62,810 nt of DNA from a virus (lineage: Duplodnaviria; Caudoviricetes), in the IMG/VR virus record IMGVR_UViG_3300037722_000563, positions 1 to 62,810 of that record; one strand, given 5' to 3'. How positions within the stretch are numbered: the first letter of the stretch is position 1; every line of letters starts with the position of its first letter. The position numbers were made by a program, and so were the translations under genes. Below, one piece after another: positions 8,063-49,874 of the stretch. A model generated the notes under the pieces. It saw only the letters and a list, made by a program, of their open reading frames with translations, was not told where the DNA came from and made no database searches.

Positions 8063-9886
8063 ATGCCTCTTTTTCTTTTGACACATAGCACCAATAAGTC
8101 CGGAGATACTTTTGTCAATGGTATTGGTTCTGCTTTAGTTGAGGCGGTTAACGAGGCAGATGCTTACATTGAAGCACAAGCTCTTTCTTCTAAATTCCAC
8201 AAAAATTATTGGCTAAATGCGGATGTTTTACAAATAACGTCAGAAGAAAGTGATTTTACTGGAGCATTGATTGGCCGTGCTTCTTCAGTAGGAACTCTAT
8301 CGCAAGCTATAGGTGGGCTTGGTGTTCTTGAATCTATTATAGATTTGAATGGACCTGTTTTTGGATTTGATTATTCTGATAATTTTACCGAAGGTGGTCC
8401 TGCTGTTTTAGCAGTAGCTGCTTCAGCAACTATAACAGGACCTATGGGTCTGACACTTAGTGAAATAACTGTAGAAATAACTAACCTTCAGGATGCTGGT
8501 GAAGAGATTTTAGATGCTGATGTAGGTGCCACAGGGATCACAAAGGATTACGTAGCACCCACTCTCACATTAACTGGTCCAGCCACCCTAGCGGAGTTTC
8601 AGGAGGTCCTGCGCACCGTGACCTATGAGAACACATCCGATGCTCCGACTGTTGGTATCAGGAGCATCCAATTTGCGGGCAGCGTCACGGCAGCGGTCAG
8701 CAATATGCCAGTGGCGTCCATAACTGTGATCCCAGTGAACGACGCTCCGGTGATCGACCTGAATGGTGCGGGTGGAGGGGCTGACTTCGCCGCCGACTTT
8801 ACCGAGGGCGGTCCTGCGGTCTCCATAGTAGACGCTACCGCGACCCTTACCGATGCCGACAGCACTACCCTGACTTCGTTGACTGTTACACTAACCGGGC
8901 TTGTGGATACCGGGGAGGAAGTCCTGGATGCTAACGTAGGCGCCACCGGCATTACCAAGTCATATGTAGCTCCGACGCTCACCCTAACGGGTCCGGCGTC
9001 CGTGGCTGACTTCCAGCAGGTGCTGCGCACCGTCACCTACGAGAACACCATGACCACGCCTACCGAGGGTGACAGGACCATCAAGTTCTCCGCCACCGAC
9101 GGCACGAATGCCAGCAACATGCCACAGACCGTCGTCACGGTTATCGCACTTCCAACGGGTCCCGGGGAAGTCGTGGTAAACGCCGTGAACTTCGACGGCA
9201 CGAACGACTACCTGATCAGGGGTGGTGCACTTACAGGCGCCGCATCCGGTAAGGAGATGAGTTGTTCATTCTGGCTGAAGTCTGGGGTGGACGGCGGGGC
9301 CCAGCACACGTATCAGGGCGCCGACGACCCAGGTGCTGGTGGTAATATAAACCCGATAACCAGGCAGGTCAACAACAAGCTGAACACGACATGGGTGACG
9401 TCCGGTGGTACGGCTGTCTGGCTAGCGACCACGGACGAGGCTATACTGGTAGCCGACGGTTGGGTAAACGTGCTGGTCTCGGTCAACTCTGCGACAGGCG
9501 CACGGTCCATATACCTGAACGACATGCCTGCCACCCTCGGCTCGGACACCTTCGTGGCTGACGCACTGATTGATTGGGACACTGTCACGAACTGGGCTAT
9601 TGGTGCTCAAGCCAGCGGCTTTGCCAGCAAGTTCAATGGGGATATGGCGGAGTTCTGGCTCGACGACAACTTCATAGACTTCACGGTCGAGGCCAACCGC
9701 CGCAAGTTCATCTCGATCGGCGGCAAGCCGGTGGAGCTGGGTGCGAACGGCCAGGACCCGCTTGGCGCGGCCCCGCTAGTATACTTCTCAGGCCCAACGG
9801 TCGACTGGCACACGAACAAGGGCTCCGGCGGCGGCTTCACCGAGAACGGTGCCCTTACCGACGCAACAACCAGCCCGAGTGATTAA
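8063..9886 (+). CDS. Virion decoration/adhesin-like protein: two cadherin/Ig-like repeats plus C-terminal LamG-like domain
   Basis: Duplicated LDAxVGATGITKxYVAPTLTLTGPA...QVLRTVTYENT; VNDAPVIDLNG; FDGTNDYL...FNGDMAEFW. Confidence 0.65.
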   Translation: MPLFLLTHSTNKSGDTFVNGIGSALVEAVNEADAYIEAQALSSKFHKNYWLNADVLQITSEESDFTGALIGRASSVGTLSQAIGGLGVLESIIDLNGPVFGFDYSDNFTEGGPAVLAVAASATITGPMGLTLSEITVEITNLQDAGEEILDADVGATGITKDYVAPTLTLTGPATLAEFQEVLRTVTYENTSDAPTVGIRSIQFAGSVTAAVSNMPVASITVIPVNDAPVIDLNGAGGGADFAADFTEGGPAVSIVDATATLTDADSTTLTSLTVTLTGLVDTGEEVLDANVGATGITKSYVAPTLTLTGPASVADFQQVLRTVTYENTMTTPTEGDRTIKFSATDGTNASNMPQTVVTVIALPTGPGEVVVNAVNFDGTNDYLIRGGALTGAASGKEMSCSFWLKSGVDGGAQHTYQGADDPGAGGNINPITRQVNNKLNTTWVTSGGTAVWLATTDEAILVADGWVNVLVSVNSATGARSIYLNDMPATLGSDTFVADALIDWDTVTNWAIGAQASGFASKFNGDMAEFWLDDNFIDFTVEANRRKFISIGGKPVELGANGQDPLGAAPLVYFSGPTVDWHTNKGSGGGFTENGALTDATTSPSD

Positions 9887-38102: not shown

Positions 38103-38145
38103 GACCCCCTGGATGCCAAGCAACTAGGGGGTTTTATTTTTTTTT
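38103..38145 (+). terminator. Intrinsic terminator between promoter and first tRNA
   Basis: GACCCCCTGG/CTAGGGGGTT stem plus ~13-nt T-tract. Confidence 0.85.
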
Positions 38146-38217
38146 CAGGGAAGGCACGGGGTGTGCCGGGTGGCTGTTAACCATTTGAGCTAGGTTCGAC
38201 TCCTAGTCCTGAAGCCA
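38144..38217 (+). tRNA. tRNA-Asn(GUU), atypical D arm
   Basis: GGTGG CT GTT AA CCATT; D arm GGCAC/GTGCC. Confidence 0.8.
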
Positions 38218-38273
38218 AAACAAAATTGTGGCTTGAATACGCTTGAGTTCCATAACAGCCGTGCCGCAATTTA

Positions 38274-38346
38274 CGCAGGGGAACATGGGTTCCTCGGGCT
38301 TTCATACGGCCCAGAGTGGTGGGTTCGACTCCCCCTCCTGCGACCA
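38274..38346 (+). tRNA. tRNA-CAU (Met/Ile2-type), shortened D arm
   Basis: GGGCT TT CAT AC GGCCC; TTCGA; CCA. Confidence 0.6.
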
Positions 38347-38355
38347 TACAATTGA

Positions 38356-38432
38356 TGCGGGTTAGACTGGAGGAGGTTCCAGCTTGGTCTCATACGCCAA
38401 AGACACAGGTTCGATTCCTGTACCCGCTACCA
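38356..38432 (+). tRNA. tRNA-fMet-like (CAU)
   Basis: U1:U72 mismatch; TTGGT CT CAT AC GCCAA. Confidence 0.75.
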
Positions 38433-38437
38433 AATAT

Positions 38438-38515
38438 GGGAGTGTAGCTCAGTCCGGATAGAGCAGCGGTCTCCAAAATCGTGTGTCGTGGGTTCGAATC
38501 CTACCTCTCCCGCCA
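38438..38515 (+). tRNA. tRNA-Trp(CCA)
   Basis: GCGGT CT CCA AA ATCGT. Confidence 0.9.
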
Positions 38516-38521
38516 AATTAT

Positions 38522-38596
38522 CCTTCTGTCGTCCAGCGGACAGGACGCCCGCCCGATAAGCGGGAAACCGGGGTTCGAATCCCTGCGGAAGGACCA
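38522..38596 (+). tRNA. tRNA-Ile(GAU)
   Basis: CCCGC CC GAT AA GCGGG (C33). Confidence 0.85.
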
Positions 38597-38655
38597 AAAA
38601 TTAGTATATGAGACCATGGGTATAGTGATTCCCAAGGCTGAACTGTCTCATATAT

Positions 38656-38733
38656 CTGAGCGTAGGAAAGCCAGGCTAATCCGCCTCCCTTGGAAGGAGG
38701 AGAACGTCCGTTCGAATCGGACCGCTCAGACCA
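38656..38733 (+). tRNA. tRNA-Pro(UGG)
   Basis: CCTCC CT TGG AA GGAGG. Confidence 0.9.
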
Positions 38734-38739
38734 AATTAT

Positions 38740-38818
38740 GGTGAGTAATGACCAACCGGTTGTTGGCTCCTGTCTGTGAAACAGGAAAGGGTGGGTTCGA
38801 CCCCCACTGCTCACCCCA
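38740..38818 (+). tRNA. tRNA-His(GUG) with G-1:C73
   Basis: CCTGT CT GTG AA ACAGG; 8-bp acceptor stem. Confidence 0.85.
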
Positions 38819-38823
38819 GTTGT

Positions 38824-38898
38824 GTGGCGGTCGTCTACAGGAAGGACCCTTGGTTCTCAGCCAGGATAACGCGGGTTCGAATCCCGTTCGCCACTCCA
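38824..38898 (+). tRNA. tRNA-Glu(CUC)
   Basis: CTTGG TT CTC AG CCAGG. Confidence 0.88.
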
Positions 38899-38946
38899 GT
38901 TCATGTTTTGTTAACAGATTGTGTGCTAATATTACGATCTGTTTAT

Positions 38947-39021
38947 GGGCCGATAGCTTAATGGGAGAGCGACTGCCTTGCAAGCAGTTAGGTGAGGGTT
39001 CGAATCCCTTTTGGTCCACCA
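38947..39021 (+). tRNA. tRNA-Ala(UGC)
   Basis: G3:U70; ACTGC CT TGC AA GCAGT. Confidence 0.92.
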
Positions 39022-39048
39022 AATACGTCGTCAGACGACAAAGGTTAT

Positions 39049-39123
39049 GCTCGGTTAGCTCAGTGGTAGAGCGTTGGTGTTACATACCAAGCGTCGGGAG
39101 TTCGAATCTCTCACCGAGTACCA
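39049..39123 (+). tRNA. tRNA-Val(UAC)
   Basis: TTGGT GT TAC AT ACCAA. Confidence 0.9.
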
Positions 39124-39129
39124 AGTTAA

Positions 39130-39206
39130 GGGTAGCGGTACTGGTTGGCATCAGGTCCCGCCTGTAAAGCGGCGTAAATCAGGTTCAATTCCTGGGCTAC
39201 CCACCA
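39130..39206 (+). tRNA. tRNA-Tyr(GUA), short variable arm
   Basis: CCGC CT GTA AA GCGG; acceptor GGGTAGC/GCTACCC. Confidence 0.75.
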
Positions 39207-39212
39207 AATTAT

Positions 39213-39289
39213 TGATCCGTAGCTCAACTGGACTGAGCACCACCCTGCGAAGGTGGAGGATGCAAGTTCGAATCTTGTCGGGTCAACCA
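39213..39289 (+). tRNA. tRNA-Arg(GCG)
   Basis: CCACC CT GCG AA GGTGG. Confidence 0.85.
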
Positions 39290-39293
39290 ATAT

Positions 39294-39374
39294 GCTTCCG
39301 TATGCCCTCTGGCTTCGAACCAGTGGAAAGGCTAACTGGACCACATGCGGGTTCGAATCCTGCCGGGAGCGCCA
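39294..39374 (+). tRNA. Non-cloverleaf tRNA-Arg(UCG)-like RNA with rearranged arms
   Basis: Acceptor and T arms normal; anticodon arm CTGG CT TCG AA CCAG follows the acceptor 5' strand; D-loop-like TAACTGGA lies 3' of it. Confidence 0.65.
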
Positions 39375-39378
39375 AGAT

Positions 39379-39455
39379 CGGTCTGTAGCTCAAATGGACA
39401 GAGCGCCCGGCTTCGAACCGGGAGGTTGTGGGTTCCAATCCTGTCAGACCGGCCA
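39379..39455 (+). tRNA. tRNA-Arg(UCG)
   Basis: CCCGG CT TCG AA CCGGG. Confidence 0.85.
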
Positions 39456-39459
39456 AAAT

Positions 39460-39545
39460 GGATGATTGGCAGAGTGGTAATGCAGCGGTTTGCTAAACCG
39501 TAGAACCGAAAGGTTCCGAGGGTTCGAATCCTTCATCATCCGCCA
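39460..39545 (+). tRNA. tRNA-Ser(GCU)
   Basis: GCGGT TT GCT AA ACCGT; long variable arm. Confidence 0.92.
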
Positions 39546-39612
39546 AAATCGGTATGCACTGACGTTAGGTGCAGATAGCCGCAAGGTCGTTCTTGCGCGC
39601 CGACGATATAAT

Positions 39613-39689
39613 GTGCTGTTAGAGGAGGGGCCGTCCTCGCTGCCCTGTCACGGCGGAAATCACGGGTTCGAATCCCGTACAGCACGCCA
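39613..39689 (+). tRNA. tRNA-Asp(GUC)
   Basis: CTGCC CT GTC AC GGCGG. Confidence 0.9.
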
Positions 39690-39693
39690 ATAT

Positions 39694-39766
39694 GTTCGGG
39701 TAGTTTAAGATTAGAATGCCACTCATTAGAGTGGAGATGGAGGTTCAAGTCCTTCCCTGATCGCCA
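39694..39766 (+). ncRNA. tRNA-like RNA lacking a canonical 7-nt anticodon loop
   Basis: D arm, T arm and CCA present; anticodon arm CCACTC-ATTA-GAGTGG. Confidence 0.6.
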
Positions 39767-39770
39767 ATAT

Positions 39771-39845
39771 GCTGTGGTAGCTCAGTGGCAGAGCATCTGC
39801 TTGGTACGCAGGAGGTCGAGGGTTCAATTCCTTCTCACAGCACCA
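39771..39845 (+). tRNA. tRNA-Thr(GGU)
   Basis: TCTGC TT GGT AC GCAGG. Confidence 0.9.
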
Positions 39846-39851
39846 TATTAC

Positions 39852-39926
39852 GCCGCTCTAGCTCAACTGGTAGAGTCCTCCCTTGTAAGGAGCGAGATAG
39901 GGGTTCGAGACCTCTGGGTGGCACCA
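39852..39926 (+). tRNA. tRNA-Thr(UGU)
   Basis: CTCC CT TGT AA GGAG. Confidence 0.85.
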
Positions 39927-39942
39927 ATTTAAGGAACTAGAC

Positions 39943-40077
39943 ATGACTAAAAATGAAGAAGAAAAGCTATACGATGCTATCTATACTGCGGTATTATACG
40001 CATTGAATCAGATTGATTACAAAAAATTGTCATGTTTTAGTCAATGGAAAGAATATAAGACACAAACGGACCGGTAG
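39943..40077 (+). CDS. Small ORF within tRNA array (44 aa)
   Basis: AAGGA RBS; MTKNEEEKLYDAIYTAVLYALNQ... Confidence 0.45.
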   Translation: MTKNEEEKLYDAIYTAVLYALNQIDYKKLSCFSQWKEYKTQTDR

Positions 40078-40143
40078 CTCAGAGGCCAGAGCGCGGGGCT
40101 CTTAATCCCGGCGTCGTGGGTTCAAATCCCACTCGGTCCTCCA
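40068..40143 (+). tRNA. tRNA-Lys(CUU)
   Basis: CGGGG CT CTT AA TCCCG. Confidence 0.9.
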
Positions 40144-40159
40144 TACTAAGGAGAGCGTC

Positions 40160-40666
40160 ATGAACAGCCCAAAGTTGGACTATGACCGTATTAACGAGTA
40201 TATCCGTAGCAGTCATGCAGAGAGTGTGGTGATGATCGGTTGCGACTCGGTACGGAAGGAGGTCCATGGTAAGGCTCATGCATTGTATTCCGCCGTTGTC
40301 TGCATTCGAAAGGCAAGTGGCGAGGGGGTATTTCATGGTTGCAAGGTCTTCGGTGGTTCTGTACGGTTGCCTGATTATGGTAAGGTGATCAAGAGTGGTA
40401 AGCTTGCGAACTTGCGTATGCGTTTGATGCAAGAGGTTACATTCGCCATAGAGGCTTTCGAGAATGTGTACGAGGCTATTGGTGATCGTCCATTCGAAAT
40501 TCACCTCGACATCAACGGTCGCCCAGATGCTGAAAGTTATGTGGCATTGGCAGAAGCGCGTGGATATGTTATGGGTGTTACTGGTGGTATTGCACCAGAG
40601 TTCAAACCTAATGCTTTGGCGGCTAGCTTTGCTGCCGATCACTGGGCGCATGGCTTTATGAGCTAG
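40160..40666 (+). CDS. RNase H-like YkuK/DUF458 family protein
   Basis: IGCDS, RLMQEV, EIHLDIN, KPNALAASFAADH; AAGGAG RBS. Confidence 0.8.
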   Translation: MNSPKLDYDRINEYIRSSHAESVVMIGCDSVRKEVHGKAHALYSAVVCIRKASGEGVFHGCKVFGGSVRLPDYGKVIKSGKLANLRMRLMQEVTFAIEAFENVYEAIGDRPFEIHLDINGRPDAESYVALAEARGYVMGVTGGIAPEFKPNALAASFAADHWAHGFMS

Positions 40667-40675
40667 GAGAAAATT

Positions 40676-40852
40676 GTGTTGAAGAAGCAAGTACGTGACT
40701 ATGACAAGACGTTCAGCGCATGGGATGCGATCCTTAGGCATCTTCGACGTAAGGAACCATCAGATAGATGCGCTTTCTTTGTCGAGGAACTGTCCGATGA
40801 GCAAATCTCCGCGATTGAGCGGGCTAAAGTCCCTCCACATACACCAAGTTAA
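40676..40852 (+). CDS. Small protein (58 aa), antitoxin-tail-like
   Basis: AGGAG RBS; ...HLRRKEPSDRCAFFVEELSDEQISAIERAKVPPH. Confidence 0.5.
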   Translation: MLKKQVRDYDKTFSAWDAILRHLRRKEPSDRCAFFVEELSDEQISAIERAKVPPHTPS

Positions 40853-40929
40853 GCCGGTGTGGGCAAATGGCAAAGTCGCTCGGTTCAAATCCGAGAGTTC
40901 TGTGGGTTCGAGTCCCACCTCCGGCACCA
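40853..40929 (+). tRNA. tRNA-Leu(CAA), short variable arm
   Basis: CTCGG TT CAA AT CCGAG. Confidence 0.85.
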
Positions 40930-40935
40930 AGTTTA

Positions 40936-41028
40936 CGTAGCGTAGTTTAACGGTAAAACACCCGGCTTATACCCGGCATGTCTCTAGATTAGAGAGCAAT
41001 GTAGGTTCGAATCCTACCGCTATGACCA
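40936..41028 (+). tRNA. tRNA-Ile(UAU) with long variable arm
   Basis: CCGG CT TAT AC CCGG; extra arm TCTCTAGATTAGAGA. Confidence 0.75.
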
Positions 41029-41034
41029 AACTAT

Positions 41035-41111
41035 GCCCTCGTAGCCCAACAGGTAGAGGCGGCTGCCTTAGAAGCAGTCTAGTGTAGGTTCGAATCCTAT
41101 CGAGGGTACCA
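41035..41111 (+). tRNA. tRNA-Leu(UAG), short variable arm
   Basis: GCTGC CT TAG AA GCAGT. Confidence 0.88.
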
Positions 41112-41115
41112 ATAT

Positions 41116-41207
41116 GGAAGGATGGCCGAGTGGACTAAGGCGCACGCCTGGAAAGCGTGTAAACGAATCAAACCGTTTCGTGGGTTCGAATCCGACTCCT
41201 TCCGCCA
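41116..41207 (+). tRNA. tRNA-Ser(GGA)
   Basis: CACGC CT GGA AA GCGTG; long variable arm. Confidence 0.92.
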
Positions 41208-41208
41208 T

Positions 41209-41306
41209 GGATGGCTAAGCCGAAAGATTCTGGGTAACGGCACCCGTCTTGAAAACGGTAGGCCCCTAAGAGGGGTGTGTGGGTTCGAATCCTACGCCAT
41301 CCGCCA
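41209..41306 (+). tRNA. tRNA-Ser(UGA), enlarged D loop
   Basis: CCGT CT TGA AA ACGG; long variable arm. Confidence 0.85.
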
Positions 41307-41358
41307 ATGTTGCGTATAGTGATCATTGTTGCGTATAATGCCAATGATATTGCGCATA
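41307..41358 (+). promoter_or_regulatory. Internal promoter with three TTGCGYATA direct repeats
   Basis: TTGCGT-N18-TATAAT; repeats at 41307, 41326, 41347. Confidence 0.5.
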
Positions 41359-41368
41359 GGAGGTAAGA

Positions 41369-41518
41369 TTGCATAAGAAGCGCGGTAAACCAAAGAGTGG
41401 TAGAGCAGGCTGTCTCCTTTGTAAGCCTCATAAGAGACAAGGTTCTAAGTGTGCAGATAGACAAAAGCATTCTGAAAACCGAAGACTTGAGAGTACAAAA
41501 GAACAATTGCTGGGATAG
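41369..41518 (+). CDS. Small basic CxxC peptide (49 aa)
   Basis: AGGAGG RBS, TTG start; HKKRGKPKSGRAGCLLCKPHK. Confidence 0.65.
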   Translation: MHKKRGKPKSGRAGCLLCKPHKRQGSKCADRQKHSENRRLESTKEQLLG

Positions 41519-41584
41519 CTCAGTTGGTAGAGCGGCGTCCTGAAAAGGCGCGCGTCGGGGGTTCGAAACCCTCTCCTAGCACCA
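41509..41584 (+). tRNA. tRNA-Phe(GAA)
   Basis: GCGTC CT GAA AA GGCGC. Confidence 0.92.
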
Positions 41585-41585
41585 T

Positions 41586-41660
41586 GCCATCGTAGTATAG
41601 CGGCATTACAGCGCCCTCGTAAGGCGTCAAACCGGGGTTCAAATCCTCGCGGTGGCACCA
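41586..41660 (+). tRNA. tRNA-Thr(CGU)
   Basis: GCGCC CT CGT AA GGCGT. Confidence 0.9.
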
Positions 41661-41665
41661 ATTAA

Positions 41666-41739
41666 TGCTGGATAGTTTAGTGGTAGAACGCTTGGCTCTG
41701 AACCAAGTAGCAAGGGTTCGAATCCTTTTCCGGCATCCA
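41666..41739 (+). tRNA. tRNA-Gln(CUG)
   Basis: CTTGG CT CTG AA CCAAG. Confidence 0.9.
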
Positions 41740-41744
41740 ATTAA

Positions 41745-41820
41745 CGGCACGTGGCTCGAATGGATAGGCACCCGGCTTCTAACTGGGACGATGTGGGTTC
41801 GAATCCTACCGTGCTGGCCA
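41745..41820 (+). tRNA. tRNA-Arg(UCU)
   Basis: CCCGG CT TCT AA CTGGG. Confidence 0.9.
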
Positions 41821-41825
41821 ATATC

Positions 41826-41900
41826 GCTGGCTTAGTTCAGTGGCAGAACCGGGCGCTCATAACGCTCTTGTCGGGGGTCCGATTCCTCCAGCCAGCACCA
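41826..41900 (+). tRNA. tRNA-CAU (Ile2 or elongator Met)
   Basis: GGGCG CT CAT AA CGCTC. Confidence 0.85.
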
Positions 41901-41907
41901 AGTTAAT

Positions 41908-41982
41908 GGATCAGTGGCTTGACAGGGAAGCATCGGACTTTTAATCCGTGATATGTGGGTTCGAATCCCACCTGATCCCCCA
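41908..41982 (+). tRNA. tRNA-Lys(UUU)
   Basis: CGGA CT TTT AA TCCG. Confidence 0.85.
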
Positions 41983-41986
41983 TAAT

Positions 41987-42063
41987 GCTCCTGTAGCCCA
42001 ATCGGCAGAGGCGTCGGCTTTAAGTCCCGATCAGTGTGGGTTCGAATCCCTCCAGGAGTACCA
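41987..42063 (+). tRNA. tRNA-Leu(UAA), short variable arm
   Basis: TCGGC TT TAA GT CCCGA; Leu-type D arm. Confidence 0.8.
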
Positions 42064-42069
42064 ATTTGT

Positions 42070-42143
42070 TGCCGAGTCGTCTAACGGTAGGACCTCTGCC
42101 TTTGAAACAGAATACGATGGTTCGAATCCATCCTCGGCATCCA
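42070..42143 (+). tRNA. tRNA-Gln(UUG)
   Basis: TCTGC CT TTG AA ACAGA. Confidence 0.88.
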
Positions 42144-42147
42144 ATAT

Positions 42148-42225
42148 GCGGCGGTCGTCTAAATGGCCTAGGACCTCTGACTTTCAATCAGGGCAATACG
42201 GGTTCGAATCCCGTTCGCCGCTCCA
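42148..42225 (+). tRNA. tRNA-Glu(UUC)
   Basis: TCTGA CT TTC AA TCAGG. Confidence 0.9.
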
Positions 42226-42253
42226 TTATCTTCCATTACCTTTCATTAACTAT

Positions 42254-42331
42254 CGTCCCGTAGCTCAGTTGGACTAGAGCGTCTGCCTCCTAAGCGGAAG
42301 ATCGCAGGTTCGAGTCCTGCCGGGACGACCA
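42254..42331 (+). tRNA. tRNA-Arg(CCU)
   Basis: TCTGC CT CCT AA GCGGA. Confidence 0.92.
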
Positions 42332-44253: not shown

Positions 44254-44282
44254 TTGACACGGGTGGTGTGTCTTGTTATAGT
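44254..44282 (+). promoter_or_regulatory. sigma70 promoter of tmRNA
   Basis: TTGACA-N17-TATAGT. Confidence 0.8.
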
Positions 44283-44288
44283 AAGTGT

Positions 44289-44613
44289 CTGAGTTCGATG
44301 AAGCGGAACGAAAGACGATCAGGACCGGGGGGCAGTGCCCCGCGCCTCCACCATAAGTACATTCACGGGCAACAGATTGTGTGACGAATCAGGATCGTAT
44401 GCCTGCGTGGACACGCCAAAGTGAATGTACTTTTGATGGGGGCGAACTAGGTTCGACTGGCGGCAAGTAGGGATGTCGAGGACTCCGGGATGATACCCAC
44501 GTAGCGGATCAAAACATCTAAACGCAAATGACAACGTAGCGTTCGAGGACATGGCTCTAGCAGCCTAGGTCTCATAGGGTTTCGGGGGACGACCTAGTAA
44601 CAGAAGGTCCCCC
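44289..44613 (+). ncRNA. ssrA: Circularly permuted two-piece tmRNA (alphaproteobacterial type)
   Basis: Acceptor piece with GGCAGTG T-loop ends CGCCTCCACCA (44353); coding piece starts GGGGGCGAA (44438); tag ANDNVAFEDMALAA* at 44524-44568. Confidence 0.92.
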
Positions 44614-44682
44614 ACCCCCATTTGACTAGTCATGCGAGTCTGAGTATAATTCAGGCTCGTTCATGATTCATAGGAGACCAGA

Positions 44683-46040: not shown

Positions 46041-49000
46041 CTAAATTATATCACAAATACCTGCTGAGCAAGCCAGTTCTCGGGTATTGTTTGTGTTGTC
46101 TTCGCTTTCGTACTTGCTTAGCCCACTCCAGTCTATCTCAGGCATAGCCGCAAGTACTTCCTGATACTTCTCCTTGGTTATTTCCTGGTATGGAGCTTGT
46201 TTGTAGGTATGATCTGTGTGCGGTAGGAAGGCCAGCCCACCAGCCGAATCGAAATTATCCCACACCCATGCCCCAACAGACGGCCACTCTTTTTCTCGCA
46301 CATATACAGTTATGGATGGGTTATGCTCACACCAGTTATCGTGAAACACTTTCCAGTGTTCAAGCTGTTCAAGGGCACTCATGTCATTACGCAAAACAGA
46401 ACCTTCTGGACTTTCCGCAGGGAACGAGAAAACTACATTTTCTTTATTCATTACGTCTATTTCATAAGGCACCCCCTGATCTATCATCATCTGGGTAAGT
46501 GGGTCCTTAGCATCCTGGCGCACAGTACGTATATAATATTTAGAAAAAGCCGTATGCATGCCGCTAGGTGTGTTCACAAGCTGGCTGGACGTACCTTCTG
46601 GTTTTATGCAAGTTACAGCCGCACTCTGAGGAATGCCTAGTCGTTCAGCCCACTCCTTATTAGTGGATATGGCAACCTCTTTTAGACGCAGTAATAGATT
46701 AGCTGTTCCACCAAGGCCGCTAGCAGAACGACCATTGAGCAAAGGATTAGCCATTATACCCGTCATGCTTACACCAAGAAGCCGCTCTTCCTCACAGTTA
46801 TCCTGCCATTTCTTTGTAAGATACCTGAATTTAGTAAGAGTGGATTGCCATGTTCCAAGAATAGTTGCTAGGCGTACTTTCTCTTCCAATGTATCTGGAT
46901 TGTCGTCAGGTCGAACTACAACTGTGCTTAAATTACAAAATTGCTTTGGCCGTAGAATAATCTCACCGCAGTTTCCTGTGACGATTCCGTTAAACGTCCC
47001 CCTGTTCGCCAACGAATCGGTAAAGCAGAAAGTCTCGTGTGGTCCGGCGTCATATACTGAAATGACGCGAACAAATTGGCGGGCATCCCTTTGTGGAATC
47101 TGTCCGTCATGTTCAAGCCGAGAAAGTTGAAGTCCCTTAGAAATAAGGTACGCGGAATCGGTGTTGCCAATCAACAGCCGCCAAGTTTTTTGACAATAGT
47201 ATGTTCCACCCGGCATGTCCTTTTCGCGGCTCTCGTGGCCTCGGACTACTTTCGCACGAATGCCGAGACGTGTAAGCATCAATTGAGTATGCAATAGAAA
47301 AGTCTTGTCAATAGATGTGATCTGAAAGCCTGATCCTTGTTTGTCTTTTGTAACGGTTCCATCCGAATCCAGTAAACCAGCAAGCCATTCCAGGCAATAA
47401 GCCGACGTAGCCTTGACAGGAACGAATCGCCGGTCAAGCATAGGTCCATGGGTCCACCGTTTACGCAGGCGATCCCCATCTTTTTTTATGTCTCCGACCA
47501 GCCGAGCCGCACAGGAGTATTTAGGCTCATAAAGCCAAGAATGGTTCAATCCGTGGTTTCCGTCTCCCGCATAAAATCCTTGAGAGTATCCGTCGATGTT
47601 AGGATCGCTGCCCTCGTTAACAAAAGGCATATCGTATTTAGTCAATTTATCTCCTGGACGTAAATCCTCTGCGCATACCCTACGCTCGTTTCCTCCCCGA
47701 GACCACCCATCCCATACAAGAAACATATGATATGGCGTGCAATGAAGACTTGTGCCATCAGAAAAAGTTACGATAACAGTTTCGTTCATCCCTGTACTAA
47801 ACGGGACCACGGAAGACCATTGTTCTCCATTCCAAATCTGGACAGGCTGATCCACTAGATCGGAAATCTCATAATATCCGTGCGACGTAAGGATAGGCGT
47901 ATCACCGGAAACGCAAGGATTCGTTCCAAAATCAATAGCACGAGGTTCAATACCATTTGACAGGTTGCCCTTACGTCGCTCATTTTTCATAGCCTGTATG
48001 CGTGCAGCTTCGCGATTGAAGATACCGCGCTCGCCTGACTTAGACGCATAAAGGGACATCCATTCTTCCATATATTGCCCAACTTCAGGTTGCTCTGTGT
48101 AAGCCACTGAGTTATTTGCAATGCGTCTCTGTGGCTCCAATACCCACCATTCGCCTGATTTGGCATCTCTCATACGCTGATCGCTTAGGTTGGATAGGCT
48201 AATCAGTGCAGACCGGCGAACACCACCCACTACGACACATTCACCGATCATGCATATGATATCATGACATTGAATACTTGTAAGCTTTCTTTGGCCGTTC
48301 TCTATAGCATTTTGAAACAAACGGATAGTGTGTGTAAATAGGTCAATCAACGGTTGGGGTCCACTAGCGCGGCCACCCATGGTTTTTAGACGCGCACCGG
48401 CAGGCCGCACCTTAGACGTATCCCATTTGGGTATGCGCCCAGCATAGAGGAGGCTGAGGAGTTCCCGGTATGCCTCAGCCCAGCCTCTCTTGGAGTCACG
48501 CACAGCAATTGTAATCCCAGACTCCTCAAGGCGCTCGGGAAGCGCAGGAAGCTGGTTTACGTACTGGCGTTCCACCGAGAAGCCAACTCCTGTAGCGCAC
48601 ATCAGCACGAACAGGATTTCATCGAATGCACGAATATCATCTACCGGACGGTATGCACAGTTTCCGGTAACAAGTCCCTTGTTGAGTACAAATGTGTTTG
48701 TATCGGGGACCTCAGCACAGTAAACGGGCTCCACCCGTCCAGTAGGTTCCACGGATACGACCACGTAATGGGATTCAAGGGGGCGAAACCGCTCCCGTTT
48801 CCGTTCGATGAGGAAATCGTCCGCCAACAGGGACGACCGGCTGAGGAATACGACCCACGAATGGCTCTTGCGTTCTCCGAGATTTGTCCGGTTTGACTGC
48901 TGTGTAGCCCTCTGTACAACAAAGCCGACCTTCGAAGCAATATGCTCCAGCCACCACTTACCGGCCTCCTTTGTGCAAATAGACACCTGTCCTGCTGCAC

Positions 49001-49874
49001 TGATATATCCATCAGCAGCCATCCACCCGCGAAGGAACCCCACAAGGTAGCTGTCGGTCTCGTCCACGGAGGGGAGAGTTTTTAAACTGTGCGTCTTGGC
49101 GAACCCATCATACAGCATCACCACAGGGTCACCGTTGGCTGACGGGGGATAGCATACGGGATACCCGTCGAACCACGGGAGCAGGTCCGCCGCGTCGGAG
49201 CACAGCCTGATATGGTATCCCTTAGCCCGCTTACAGGAGTATACAGCGGTACCGTCGCCATATACCAGACCATGGATCACCCCCAGCCGGTAGTCTTCGT
49301 CATCTGTAGACGGACGTTCTGCTGCTACAAAGGGTACCCTGTCCCCGGAACGCAGGAATTCAGTGGGCACCACACGGCCACCCTCAAGGAGCCAGCGGTG
49401 GTTGGCTGTGCAATCTACAGAATTCAATGTATTCGAATTCAACTTAAGGCTGACGGTGTGTGTGTCTTGGCTGCCATAACAGTTAAACTCTGCGGCGGTC
49501 CATCGGCTGTCCTTATTCAGGACCGTGGCCGTAGAGCCGCTCAACTGTTCGATAGGAACCAGGCCGTGCTCATGGGTGAGAACAAGTGTGGAGCCCGCTA
49601 CCGGATTATATCCAGATACATGATCACGGCCTAGAGCATTGCCAGCAGCCATGAGACAACGCATGGACGGCATAACATCAAGTTTTTGTACAGCATCTTT
49701 GATAGGTAAATATTCCTGAGGGGCGATAGAACCGTGGTTTTCACGTAGATAGGGTATGAAGAAATCAAAATACCGCTGAACTGTCTCATCCCAAGTCTCT
49801 CTGCGACCTTCGTTTTCGTTCCAACGGGCATAACGGCTAGCATGAATGAATCGTTGATAGTCTGTCTTAAACAT
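46041..49874 (-). CDS. nrdJ: Class II (B12-dependent) ribonucleotide reductase with two inteins
   Basis: SRYARW, MPSMR, YN|CAY, GGVRRSA, GTNP|CGEI, TCIKPEGT, C-terminal ACSAGICD. Confidence 0.92.
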   Translation of the reverse strand: MFKTDYQRFIHASRYARWNENEGRRETWDETVQRYFDFFIPYLRENHGSIAPQEYLPIKDAVQKLDVMPSMRCLMAAGNALGRDHVSGYNPVAGSTLVLTHEHGLVPIEQLSGSTATVLNKDSRWTAAEFNCYGSQDTHTVSLKLNSNTLNSVDCTANHRWLLEGGRVVPTEFLRSGDRVPFVAAERPSTDDEDYRLGVIHGLVYGDGTAVYSCKRAKGYHIRLCSDAADLLPWFDGYPVCYPPSANGDPVVMLYDGFAKTHSLKTLPSVDETDSYLVGFLRGWMAADGYISAAGQVSICTKEAGKWWLEHIASKVGFVVQRATQQSNRTNLGERKSHSWVVFLSRSSLLADDFLIERKRERFRPLESHYVVVSVEPTGRVEPVYCAEVPDTNTFVLNKGLVTGNCAYRPVDDIRAFDEILFVLMCATGVGFSVERQYVNQLPALPERLEESGITIAVRDSKRGWAEAYRELLSLLYAGRIPKWDTSKVRPAGARLKTMGGRASGPQPLIDLFTHTIRLFQNAIENGQRKLTSIQCHDIICMIGECVVVGGVRRSALISLSNLSDQRMRDAKSGEWWVLEPQRRIANNSVAYTEQPEVGQYMEEWMSLYASKSGERGIFNREAARIQAMKNERRKGNLSNGIEPRAIDFGTNPCVSGDTPILTSHGYYEISDLVDQPVQIWNGEQWSSVVPFSTGMNETVIVTFSDGTSLHCTPYHMFLVWDGWSRGGNERRVCAEDLRPGDKLTKYDMPFVNEGSDPNIDGYSQGFYAGDGNHGLNHSWLYEPKYSCAARLVGDIKKDGDRLRKRWTHGPMLDRRFVPVKATSAYCLEWLAGLLDSDGTVTKDKQGSGFQITSIDKTFLLHTQLMLTRLGIRAKVVRGHESREKDMPGGTYYCQKTWRLLIGNTDSAYLISKGLQLSRLEHDGQIPQRDARQFVRVISVYDAGPHETFCFTDSLANRGTFNGIVTGNCGEIILRPKQFCNLSTVVVRPDDNPDTLEEKVRLATILGTWQSTLTKFRYLTKKWQDNCEEERLLGVSMTGIMANPLLNGRSASGLGGTANLLLRLKEVAISTNKEWAERLGIPQSAAVTCIKPEGTSSQLVNTPSGMHTAFSKYYIRTVRQDAKDPLTQMMIDQGVPYEIDVMNKENVVFSFPAESPEGSVLRNDMSALEQLEHWKVFHDNWCEHNPSITVYVREKEWPSVGAWVWDNFDSAGGLAFLPHTDHTYKQAPYQEITKEKYQEVLAAMPEIDWSGLSKYESEDNTNNTRELACSAGICDII
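46971..47915 (-). mobile_element. Class 1 intein with LAGLIDADG domain (315 aa)
   Basis: CVSGDT...CTPYH...GIVTGN|C; WLAGLLDSDG. Confidence 0.9.
48660..49604 (-). mobile_element. Class 3 intein (Pro-start) with LAGLIDADG domain (315 aa)
   Basis: PVAGST...CTANHRW...VYCAEV...LVTGN|C; FLRGWMAADG. Confidence 0.88.

What the first reader, a model, noticed from the sequence alone, without database searches (positions are those of the whole stretch)
39294..39374. tRNA-Arg-like RNA with rearranged arm order
Seen: normal acceptor stem (GCTTCCG/CGGGAGC), T arm and CCA, but the UCG anticodon hairpin comes directly after a short GCC that pairs with GGC 3' of it, and a D-loop-like TAACTGGA (compare CAACTGGA in the neighbouring Arg tRNA, with the A20-like identity base) lies where the variable region should be. 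A canonical Arg(UCG) gene follows. Inference: an L-shape reached by different connectivity, acting as nuclease-resistant tRNA or decoy.
Basis: partly seen in the sequence, partly recalled or inferred. Interest (0 to 1): 0.7.

Follow-up and report, generated by a model that had tools for sequence, protein, structure and literature searches.

The report
Rewired arginine tRNA in phages
This phage gene encodes an arginine tRNA whose inner arms are joined in a different order from the usual cloverleaf, and it is one of hundreds of such unannotated genes in phage genomes, which questions the rule that tRNAs outside organelles are all cloverleaves.

Summary
Window 39294-39374 has a 7-bp acceptor stem, a T arm and CCA. 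The UCG anticodon hairpin follows a short GCC that pairs with a GGC 3' of it, and a D-loop-like UAACUGGA lies in the variable region. ARAGORN misses it, and Rfam's tRNA model gives 27.7 bits against a cut-off of 29.

It is not a one-off or a decayed gene. I found the same architecture in at least 201 places in IMG/VR viral contigs (135 distinct sequences, 134 with Arg anticodons). It is also present, with no feature listed under it, in 10 cultured phages of Stenotrophomonas, Xanthomonas, Rhizobium, Mesorhizobium and Microbacterium. A model built without the window scores the window element at 75.5 bits (E 4e-16), against at most 32.8 bits for its canonical tRNAs.

The acceptor, anticodon and T stems covary strongly, and the short helix covaries more modestly. 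These genes sit in tRNA arrays, and a canonical Arg tRNA with the same anticodon lies in the same stretch in only 5 of 201 cases.

My best reading is a working tRNA-Arg whose D/anticodon domain is circularly permuted. Folding, charging and decoding are inferred. Eight literature searches found no description of it.

The parts
39294..39300 (+). Acceptor stem, 5' strand.
   Evidence: Pairs 7 of 7 with 39364-39370. In the family all 7 pairs show changes on both sides and 99.8% of cells are paired.
39301..39302 (+). U8 A9 connector.
   Evidence: UA follows the acceptor stem in every family member listed, apart from two rows (L168, L323) that my script framed wrongly.
39304..39306 (+). GCC, the 5'-proximal strand of the short D' helix. 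It stands where the 3' strand of a D stem (about positions 22-25) would run into the anticodon stem.
   Evidence: It faces GGC 39330-39332. In subtype 2 the free partner of G11 is C in 70 of 70 distinct sequences. In type 1 the equivalent pair is C-G in 69 of 72.
39307..39307 (+). C14, a hinge nucleotide that probably pairs with G 39326.
   Evidence: C in 16 of 16 subtype-2b members, and the G two bases after the stem is invariant (16 of 16). The pairing is inferred.
39308..39324 (+). Anticodon arm: a U.U pair plus 4 bp, and the 7-nt loop 39313-39319 with anticodon UCG at 39315-39317.
   Evidence: The U.U (or U.C) on top of 4 perfect pairs is found in 16 of 16 subtype-2b members, so it is a subtype feature and not decay. 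In type 1, 5 of 5 stem pairs covary.
39325..39329 (+). Linker GG then AAA: a hinge and an A-rich bulge between the anticodon stem and the D' helix.
   Evidence: AAA was fixed by the search pattern in subtype 2. An AA bulge is present in type 1.
39330..39332 (+). GGC, the 3'-proximal strand of the D' helix. It stands where the 5' strand of a D stem (about positions 10-13) would lead into the D loop.
   Evidence: Contigs from runs X3, X4 and X5 carry C>G at 39332.
39333..39340 (+). D-loop-like octamer UAACUGGA, read as the equivalents of A14, A15, G18, G19 and A20.
   Evidence: It is the same as the D-loop motif of the neighbouring Arg(GCG). GG followed by A is kept in all 10 members from cultured phages, which were found by BLAST and the covariance model and not by a pattern.
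39341..39346 (+). Six-base linker ending in AU. The U is read as U48, the partner of A15.
   Evidence: AU directly before the T stem in 72 of 72 and 69 of 70 members. It was in neither search pattern.
39347..39363 (+). T arm: 5 bp and the loop UUCGAAU.
   Evidence: The T stem is 100% paired in the family.
39364..39374 (+). Acceptor stem 3' strand, discriminator G and encoded CCA.
39379..39455 (+). Canonical tRNA-Arg(UCG) directly downstream. It is context and not part of the element.
   Evidence: ARAGORN. Rfam tRNA 61.3 bits.

Best explanation
Window 39294-39374 is a working, structurally non-canonical tRNA-Arg(UCG). It belongs to a large phage-borne family in which the D/anticodon domain is circularly permuted. 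After U8-A9 the chain enters a short strand that stands for the 3' strand of a D stem, and from there it runs into the anticodon hairpin. After the hairpin the chain comes back as the equivalent of the D stem's 5' strand, and only then forms the D loop. A short linker ending in AU joins the D loop to the T stem. The secondary structure is therefore a three-way junction. One arm is the acceptor stem stacked on the T arm, and the other is a single long arm of D' helix plus anticodon stem, 9-10 layers as in a normal tRNA. I infer that the single-stranded D-loop segment still makes the usual core contacts (U8 with A14, A15 with U48, G18-G19 with the T loop). I also infer that it presents A20, which together with C35 and G36 is the identity set of bacterial ArgRS. 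On this reading the RNA is cut out of the tRNA array like its neighbours, charged with arginine and used to read CGA/CGG. What is shown: the architecture, its conservation and covariation, its restriction to Arg anticodons, its position in tRNA arrays, and the fact that elsewhere it is usually the only gene in the stretch with that anticodon. What is inferred: the tertiary fold, processing, charging and decoding.
For: Membership: model R2, built from 78 relatives without the window, scores the element 75.5 bits (E 4.3e-16), and the next best hit in the window scores 32.8 bits.

Of these, 111 have a full tRNA frame, with 65 distinct sequences. Pattern 2 gave 104 loci, 90 with a frame and 70 distinct. 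Anticodons: ACG 69, UCG 32, UCU 30, CCU 2, CCG 1, GAU 1, so 134 of 135 are Arg.

Cultured phages: 10 copies were confirmed with the model at 57-87 bits, in DLP6, BUDD, X1, RHph_I1_18, Xoo-sp13, XacN1, Zooman, Cp1R7A-A1, Pumpernickel and RAS14. No feature is listed under any of the 12 BLAST matches; one of those records has no annotation at all.

Covariation on 72 sequences: 90.7% of cells are paired against 68.7% in shuffles (0 of 500 shuffles reach the observed value), and sliding the partners gives 30-47%. Changes on both sides occur in 7 of 7 acceptor pairs and 5 of 5 anticodon-stem pairs.

D' helix: G14 goes with C38 in 8 of 8 cases, and a purine at 13 goes with U39 in 14 of 14. Pumpernickel has G-C where the others have C-G. 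G11 faces C in 70 of 70 subtype-2 sequences, against C11-G in 69 of 72 type-1 sequences.

Window copy: it matches subtype 2b at every scored position. Its interior 39301-39340 is identical, bar one indel, to L488:4563-4642.

Context: 108 of 110 and 68 of 91 instances lie in tRNA arrays. A canonical Arg with the same anticodon lies in the held stretch in only 4 of 110 and 1 of 91. In RHph_I1_18 it is the only Arg tRNA among 16 tRNAs in 35 kb. In X1 it is the only ACG among 41 tRNAs in 40 kb.

Virus-specific: the same pattern in one genome for each of 185,579 prokaryote species gave 104 hits, only 6 with a tRNA frame, and all 6 lie in dense tRNA arrays.

Arg identity (A20, C35, U/G36, A/G73) is taken from passages of PMC9976931.
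Against: There is no RNA evidence at all. No RNA run held more than 0.04 of the sampled words, so expression, processing and charging are untested.

Thermodynamic folding does not single out the proposed fold. The MFE z-score is -0.72, and with the acceptor and T arms fixed many folds lie within 2 kcal/mol of each other.

RNAalifold on the 72-sequence alignment predicts the three long stems but not the D' helix.

In type 1 the D' helix is only 65% paired. Pair 13:39 is unpaired in 58 of 72 rows and pair 10:45 in 48 of 72.

Much of the invariance of the D-loop motif comes from the search patterns. This applies to 65 of the 72 rows in the first alignment and to all of set 2.

The window is atypical in having a canonical Arg(UCG) directly behind the element. 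A strain variant changes the C that pairs with G11 (39332 C>G in three runs).

CCA is not encoded in 18 of 70 subtype-2 members.

One member carries an Ile anticodon.
Confidence: 0.62

Rival explanations
1. It is a working tRNA-Arg but not a permuted L-shape. It would behave like the D-armless mitochondrial tRNAs, with a flexible Y or boomerang shape. On this view the conserved octamer serves only as an ArgRS handle (A20) or as a spacer.
For: The D' helix is short and interrupted by bulges, RNAalifold does not predict it, and it is only 65% paired in type 1. E. coli translation accepts an engineered tRNA with no D arm at all (PMC11551756, abstract and passages).
Against: The T loop keeps the canonical UUCGA form where the pattern did not impose it (64 of 70 in set 2). 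GG, the two As before it, U8 and the AU before the T stem are all kept. That is the full set needed for the canonical elbow and core, and such conservation is lost in D-armless organelle tRNAs (general knowledge, recalled). The composite arm keeps 9-10 layers in all three subtypes, by my reading.
Confidence: 0.17
2. It is a tRNA mimic that is not used in translation. It might be a decoy or inhibitor for a host tRNA-directed nuclease or another tRNA-binding protein, or a processing signal in the array.
For: In the window, and in phages DLP6 and Zooman, a canonical Arg tRNA with the same anticodon is also present, so there the copy is not needed to cover the codon. Phage tRNAs are known to counter tRNA-cleaving defences (titles and abstracts of PMC10264068 and PMC12409363 in the listings).
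Against: The family has diversified over five Arg anticodons, and in 196 of 201 places no canonical gene with the same anticodon lies in the held stretch. A decoy has no need for that. The anticodon loop, the U33 position and the identity bases are all kept.
Confidence: 0.12
3. The window copy is a pseudogene: a family member, or a scrambled canonical Arg(UCG), that became dispensable once the canonical Arg(UCG) at 39379-39455 arrived.
For: The neighbour is redundant. In 5 of 12 close relatives the same array slot, with the same acceptor stem, holds a canonical Arg(UCG). There is a polymorphism at a paired base. Rfam scores it below its threshold.
Against: Every feature that looked like damage (the U.U pair, G11 and the extra C) is a conserved mark of subtype 2b, 16 of 16. 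All stems are intact and CCA is kept. It scores 75.5 bits with the independent model, within the 53.6-114.7 bit range that the 78 relatives score with model R1. The sequence is identical in a contig from another run.
Confidence: 0.07

Closest known systems
Canonical bacterial and phage tRNA-Arg (Rfam RF00005; for example the neighbours at 39213-39289 and 39379-39455).
   Same: A 7-bp acceptor stem, discriminator and CCA. A 5-bp T stem with the UUCGA loop. A 7-nt anticodon loop with Arg anticodons. The D-loop motif with GG followed by A. U8-A9. U before the T stem. A position inside tRNA arrays.
   Different: There is no D hairpin between position 9 and the anticodon arm. The D-loop sequence lies 3' of the anticodon arm. 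The junction is three-way instead of four-way. Rfam's gathering score misses it in 0 of 9 cultured-phage copies called, and 27.7 against 29 bits in the window. ARAGORN misses it in 197 of 201 places.
D-armless mitochondrial tRNAs (metazoan mt-tRNA-Ser, nematode and mite tRNAs), and the engineered mini HisT.
   Same: The anticodon arm follows the acceptor stem after a short connector, and no D hairpin is present.
   Different: Those tRNAs have lost the D loop and usually the conserved T loop, and they are flexible. This is taken from passages of the review PMC7609411 and from PMC11551756. Here the D-loop sequence is kept but moved, the T loop is canonical, and the hosts are bacteria and not organelles.
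Circularly permuted tRNA genes of Cyanidioschyzon merolae (PMC3978253, seen as title and abstract in the listing).
   Same: The order of tRNA segments in the gene differs from the canonical order.
   Different: There the whole gene is permuted (the 3' half comes before the 5' half) and RNA processing restores a normal cloverleaf. Here only the inner D/anticodon domain is permuted, the 5' and 3' ends are normal, and no simple cut-and-join would restore the canonical order. The mature RNA is therefore expected to keep the new connectivity.
allo-tRNAs and other tRNAs with novel cloverleaf structures (8/4 and 9/3 acceptor/T branches), found in bacteria and phages (PMC5389517, abstract seen).
   Same: They are non-standard tRNAs discovered in genome and metagenome data, partly in phages, and standard finders miss them.
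   Different: Those remain cloverleaves with arms of altered length. This family changes the order of the arms.

Membership tests
tRNA (Rfam RF00005, canonical cloverleaf) | Score at or above the curated gathering score of 29 bits. | tested here: not met
   27.7 bits, E 6e-4 in a 281-base search. 0 of 9 cultured-phage copies are listed at the gathering threshold.
tRNA (Rfam RF00005, canonical cloverleaf) | A D-arm hairpin between positions 9 and 26. | tested here: not met
   The model's 15 D-arm positions are matched by only 4 bases. Only 5-6 bases separate A9 from the anticodon stem.
tRNA (Rfam RF00005, canonical cloverleaf) | A 7-bp acceptor stem, a 5-bp T stem with a 7-nt loop, and an anticodon stem with a 7-nt loop. 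| tested here: met
   Covariation in the family is shown.
Permuted-D tRNA-Arg family (defined here, models R1 and R2) | A significant score with a covariance model built without the window. | tested here: met
   R2 gives 75.5 bits, E 4.3e-16. Canonical tRNAs of the window score at most 32.8 bits.
Permuted-D tRNA-Arg family (defined here, models R1 and R2) | The order acceptor, UA, short C-rich strand, anticodon hairpin, A-rich linker, G-rich strand, UAAYUGGA-like segment, linker ending in AU, T arm. | tested here: met
   parsed beside 16 subtype-2b members. All scored positions agree.
Permuted-D tRNA-Arg family (defined here, models R1 and R2) | An Arg anticodon. | tested here: met
   UCG at 39315-39317. 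134 of 135 distinct members carry Arg anticodons.
Functional elongator tRNA-Arg | A mature RNA that is processed, carries CCA and is arginylated. | not testable with these tools
   No RNA run holds the stretch. This needs tRNA sequencing and charging assays.
Functional elongator tRNA-Arg | The bacterial ArgRS identity set: A20 in the D loop, C35, U/G36, A/G73. | tested here: inconclusive
   C35, G36 and G73 are present. An A follows GG in the displaced D-loop motif, but whether ArgRS can reach it in this fold is unknown. The identity set is from PMC9976931.
tRNA pseudogene | Disrupted stems, lineage-specific damage and no conservation of the aberrant parts. | tested here: not met
   The stems are intact. 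The aberrant parts are conserved in 16 of 16 subtype-2b members and across the family.

The most novel reading that the evidence does not exclude
Phages carry a whole class of natural elongator tRNAs with a non-cloverleaf, circularly permuted core that works on bacterial ribosomes. The class persists because the rewired D region escapes host tRNA-directed defence nucleases, or the phage's own attack on host tRNAs, while ArgRS still recognises it. It would then be both the first non-organellar exception to the cloverleaf rule and a new counter-defence device.
Probability: 0.2. Interest if true: 0.95.

Novelty: new variant of a known kind. Interest (0 to 1): 0.88.

Why it matters

If these RNAs are charged and used, they are a natural counter-example that is abundant in phages. 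The L-shaped core could then be built with a different strand order.

This has practical consequences too. Standard tRNA finders undercount phage tRNA sets: an Arg isoacceptor is silently missing from the annotation of at least 10 cultured phages. Codon-usage and host-prediction studies inherit that error.

The family also offers a ready-made scaffold for orthogonal tRNA design, and a testable case for how ArgRS, RNase P, EF-Tu, TadA and the ribosome tolerate a rewired core.

Members occur in culturable phage-host pairs of Rhizobium, Microbacterium and Stenotrophomonas, so the question can be tested directly.

Tried and rejected
**Folding of the single sequence.** The MFE z-score is -0.72. With the acceptor and T arms fixed, many folds lie within 2 kcal/mol of each other. 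One is a canonical-order alternative: a mini hairpin plus a 5-bp stem with a 10-nt loop. I rejected it as the family's structure because only 16 of 65 and 11 of 65 distinct subtype-2 cores can form its two hairpins.

**My own first reading.** I first put 60% on a decaying orthologue of a canonical Arg(UCG). I dropped this once the family was found.

**Searches that found nothing.**
- Megablast of the array against GenBank phages gave only two short tRNA matches.
- Exact-word scans of IMG/VR gave 0 hits.
- The 588-aa neighbouring protein gave no related loci.

**A loose pattern.** It returned 117 loci, of which only 2 had a tRNA frame. Most hits were chance.

**Close relatives of this phage.** Among the loci found through the RNaseH-like gene, model R1 at E <= 1e-6 found no permuted copy. 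The one extra hit, L018:2009-2084 at 48.9 bits, was not inspected.

**RNAalifold.** It did not recover the D' helix.

**Local alignment of the insert to the window's own tRNAs.** The score is at chance level, with 237 of 500 shuffles as high.

**Expression.** No RNA run held more than 0.04 of the sampled words, so nothing can be said about transcription.

**Supplementary files of papers.** I did not consult them. They could hold tRNA lists of the cultured phages that mention these genes.

Full report
**Setting.** The window is a 62.8-kb IMG/VR viral contig. ARAGORN tRNA genes in it, 32 of them in an array at 38144-42331 on the + strand. A two-piece tmRNA lies at 44261-44659. The finding lies in an 89-base gap between tRNA-Arg(GCG) at 39213-39289 and tRNA-Arg(UCG) at 39379-39455.

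**The observation.**
- A 7-bp acceptor stem (39294-39300 with 39364-39370), discriminator G and CCA.
- A normal T arm (39347-39363).
- An anticodon hairpin with UCG (39308-39324) that starts only a few bases after U8-A9.
- GCC (39304-39306), which can pair with GGC (39330-39332) on the far side of that hairpin.
- The octamer UAACUGGA (39333-39340), in the place of the variable region.

ARAGORN does not call it. Rfam's tRNA model aligns the acceptor, anticodon and T arms, deletes the D arm and inserts 19 bases. It scores 27.7 bits, against a gathering score of 29. The DNA is not an assembly artefact: contigs from two sequencing runs cover it without a difference. A strain variant, C>G at 39332, is seen in three runs.

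**First lead, later revised.** Energy-based folding of the single sequence says little (z = -0.72; many near-equal folds). Close relatives of this phage were reached through an RNaseH-like (DUF458) gene that sits inside the array. They have the same order of tRNAs. In 5 of the 12 relatives that hold an Arg(UCG) in this region, the slot between Arg(GCG) and Ser(GCU) is taken by a canonical Arg(UCG). That gene has exactly the acceptor stem of the window element. This suggested a scrambled, redundant pseudogene.

**The family.** I wrote a scanner for acceptor stem plus T arm that ignores the interior. It found the same odd order in much more distant viral contigs, with anticodon ACG and an extra hairpin before the T arm.
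- A covariance model (R1) built from 8 such sequences picked up copies at 57-87 bits in 10 cultured phages, which BLAST had first located. These are Stenotrophomonas phages DLP6 and RAS14, Xanthomonas phages BUDD, X1, Xoo-sp13 and XacN1, Rhizobium phage RHph_I1_18, Mesorhizobium phage Cp1R7A-A1, and Microbacterium phages Zooman and Pumpernickel. Stenotrophomonas phage CM1 matched by BLAST only.
- No feature is listed under any of the 12 BLAST matches; one of those records has no annotation at all. Rfam's gathering threshold of the 9 copies tested.
- Two motif scans of IMG/VR followed. Of these, 111 have a full tRNA frame, with 65 distinct sequences. The second, aimed at the window's own subtype, returned 104 loci, 90 with a frame and 70 distinct.
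- Of the 135 distinct sequences, 134 carry Arg anticodons: ACG 69, UCG 32, UCU 30, CCU 2 and CCG 1. One carries GAU.
- The first motif run against one genome for each of 185,579 prokaryote species gave 104 hits. Only 6 have a tRNA frame, and all 6 sit in dense, phage-like tRNA arrays.
- ARAGORN of 110 and 4 of 91 of the viral instances.

**Membership of the window copy.** Model R2 was built from 78 relatives and not from the window. It scores 39294-39374 at 75.5 bits (E 4.3e-16), and the window's canonical tRNAs reach at most 32.8 bits. The copy belongs to a subtype I call 2b. The features that looked like damage are conserved marks of that subtype, in 16 of 16 distinct members:
- the U.U pair on top of a 4-bp anticodon stem;
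- G instead of C at position 11;
- an extra C that pairs with that G.

The interior, 39301-39340, is identical bar one indel to L488:4563-4642, which has a wholly different acceptor stem.

**Structure.** On a 72-sequence alignment, pair counts support the three long stems strongly.

| Measure | Result |
|---|---|
| Acceptor stem | 7 of 7 pairs with changes on both sides, 99.8% paired |
| Anticodon stem | 5 of 5 pairs with changes on both sides, 97.5% paired |
| T stem | 100% paired |
| Overall pairing | 90.7%, against 68.7% in shuffles (0 of 500 as high) |
| Overall pairing with partners slid | 30-47% |

The short helix that brackets the anticodon hairpin (the D' helix) has weaker but real support.
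- G14 goes with C38 in 8 of 8 cases, and C14 with G38 in 45 of 57.
- A purine at 13 goes with U39 in 14 of 14 cases.
- Pumpernickel has G-C where the others have C-G.
- Between subtypes, C11 faces G in 69 of 72 sequences, and G11 faces C in 70 of 70. In each case the base counted was left free by the search pattern.

Against this, RNAalifold does not predict the D' helix. In type 1, pair 13:39 is unpaired in 58 of 72 rows and pair 10:45 in 48 of 72. Much of the invariance of the octamer was imposed by my patterns. The members found by BLAST and the model keep GG followed by A, with one-base length variation. U8-A9 and the AU before the T stem were not imposed and are nearly invariant.

**Reading of the architecture (inference).**
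- The strand after U8-A9 runs straight into the 5' strand of the anticodon stem, as positions 22-25 do in a normal tRNA.
- The strand after the anticodon hairpin runs straight into the D-loop motif, as positions 10-13 do.
- The order is therefore 22-25, 26, 27-43, 44, 10-13, 14-21. This is a circular permutation of the D/anticodon domain with its new ends between 21 and 22.
- The result is a three-way junction whose long arm has 9-10 stacked layers in all three subtypes, like the 4+1+5 of a cloverleaf.
- All bases that form the canonical core and elbow are present: U8, A14, A15, G18, G19, U48 and the T loop.
- So is A20, the main bacterial ArgRS determinant (PMC9976931, passages read).

I recall, but did not check, that artificial circular permutations of yeast tRNA-Phe fold correctly.

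**Function.** The genes sit in arrays (108 of 110 and 68 of 91 instances). The median gap to the upstream tRNA is 8 nt in set 1 and 37 nt in set 2. A canonical Arg with the same anticodon lies in the held stretch in only 5 of 201 cases. In RHph_I1_18 the permuted gene is the only Arg tRNA among 16 tRNAs in 35 kb. In X1 it is the only ACG among 41 tRNAs. One contig carries two permuted genes in tandem with different anticodons. This pattern fits a decoding tRNA far better than a decoy. No RNA data could be brought to bear.

**The window itself.** The window is unusual in keeping a canonical Arg(UCG) next door. Its acceptor stem equals that of the canonical gene in its relatives, while its interior equals a subtype-2b gene from elsewhere. 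A chimera formed by recombination is the simplest story, but it is untested.

**Literature.** Eight full-text searches returned no description of a tRNA with this connectivity or of unannotated Arg tRNAs in these phages. I also looked up terms in four papers:
- the review of non-canonical tRNAs, PMC7609411;
- a paper on tRNA gene fragments, PMC9897764;
- the mini HisT paper, PMC11551756;
- the tRNA identity review, PMC9976931.

None of the looked-up passages in these four describes it. The library lacks most subscription journals, and supplements were closed, so an earlier report cannot be excluded.

**Verdict.** The element is a member of a large, virus-borne, previously unannotated class of arginine tRNAs with a permuted core.

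Noticed in passing
window 39694-39766: A tRNA that ARAGORN leaves unassigned ('???', anticodon 'tt'). It has a 6-nt anticodon loop, and Rfam's tRNA model gives 39.9 bits.
   Followed up: no
window 41209-41306: A class-II tRNA with a UGA (Ser) anticodon and an unusually long D arm. ARAGORN misses it. Rfam's tRNA-Sec model gives 30.5 bits, below its cut-off of 47. It is conserved in at least 9 related contigs.
   Followed up: partly
window 40160-40666 (+): An RNaseH-like DUF458/YkuK gene sits inside the tRNA array. All 120 listed homologues (of 212 hits) are 60-100% identical. A role in tRNA processing or repair is possible.
   Followed up: partly
window 44261-44659 (+): A two-piece (permuted) tmRNA with the tag ANDNVAFEDMALAA. 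Relatives carry one too.
   Followed up: no
window 46041-49874 (-): A ribonucleotide reductase gene interrupted by an intein with a LAGLIDADG homing endonuclease.
   Followed up: no
L034:5313-5427 and L017:2108-2221: A conserved spacer of about 115 nt between Arg(GCG) and Arg(UCG) in two relatives. It has paired ends and could be a small structured RNA.
   Followed up: no
L011:708-776, L013:5663-5731, L017:2477-2545; L011:2967-3038, L016:3523-3594: Other conserved tRNAs that ARAGORN misses in related arrays: a 69-nt Thr(UGU) with a miniature D arm, and an Arg(CCU) whose D region has no stem.
   Followed up: no
L220:190-271 (-): The only family member of 135 with a non-Arg anticodon, GAU (Ile). 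It has no encoded CCA.
   Followed up: no
L223:9399-9478 and 9488-9566 (-): Two permuted Arg tRNAs in tandem, one ACG type 1 and one UCG subtype 2a.
   Followed up: partly
L437:1802-2264 (Mesorhizobium phage Cp1R7A-A1): A GOLLD RNA (Rfam 193.5 bits) about 530 nt downstream of the permuted Arg tRNA.
   Followed up: no
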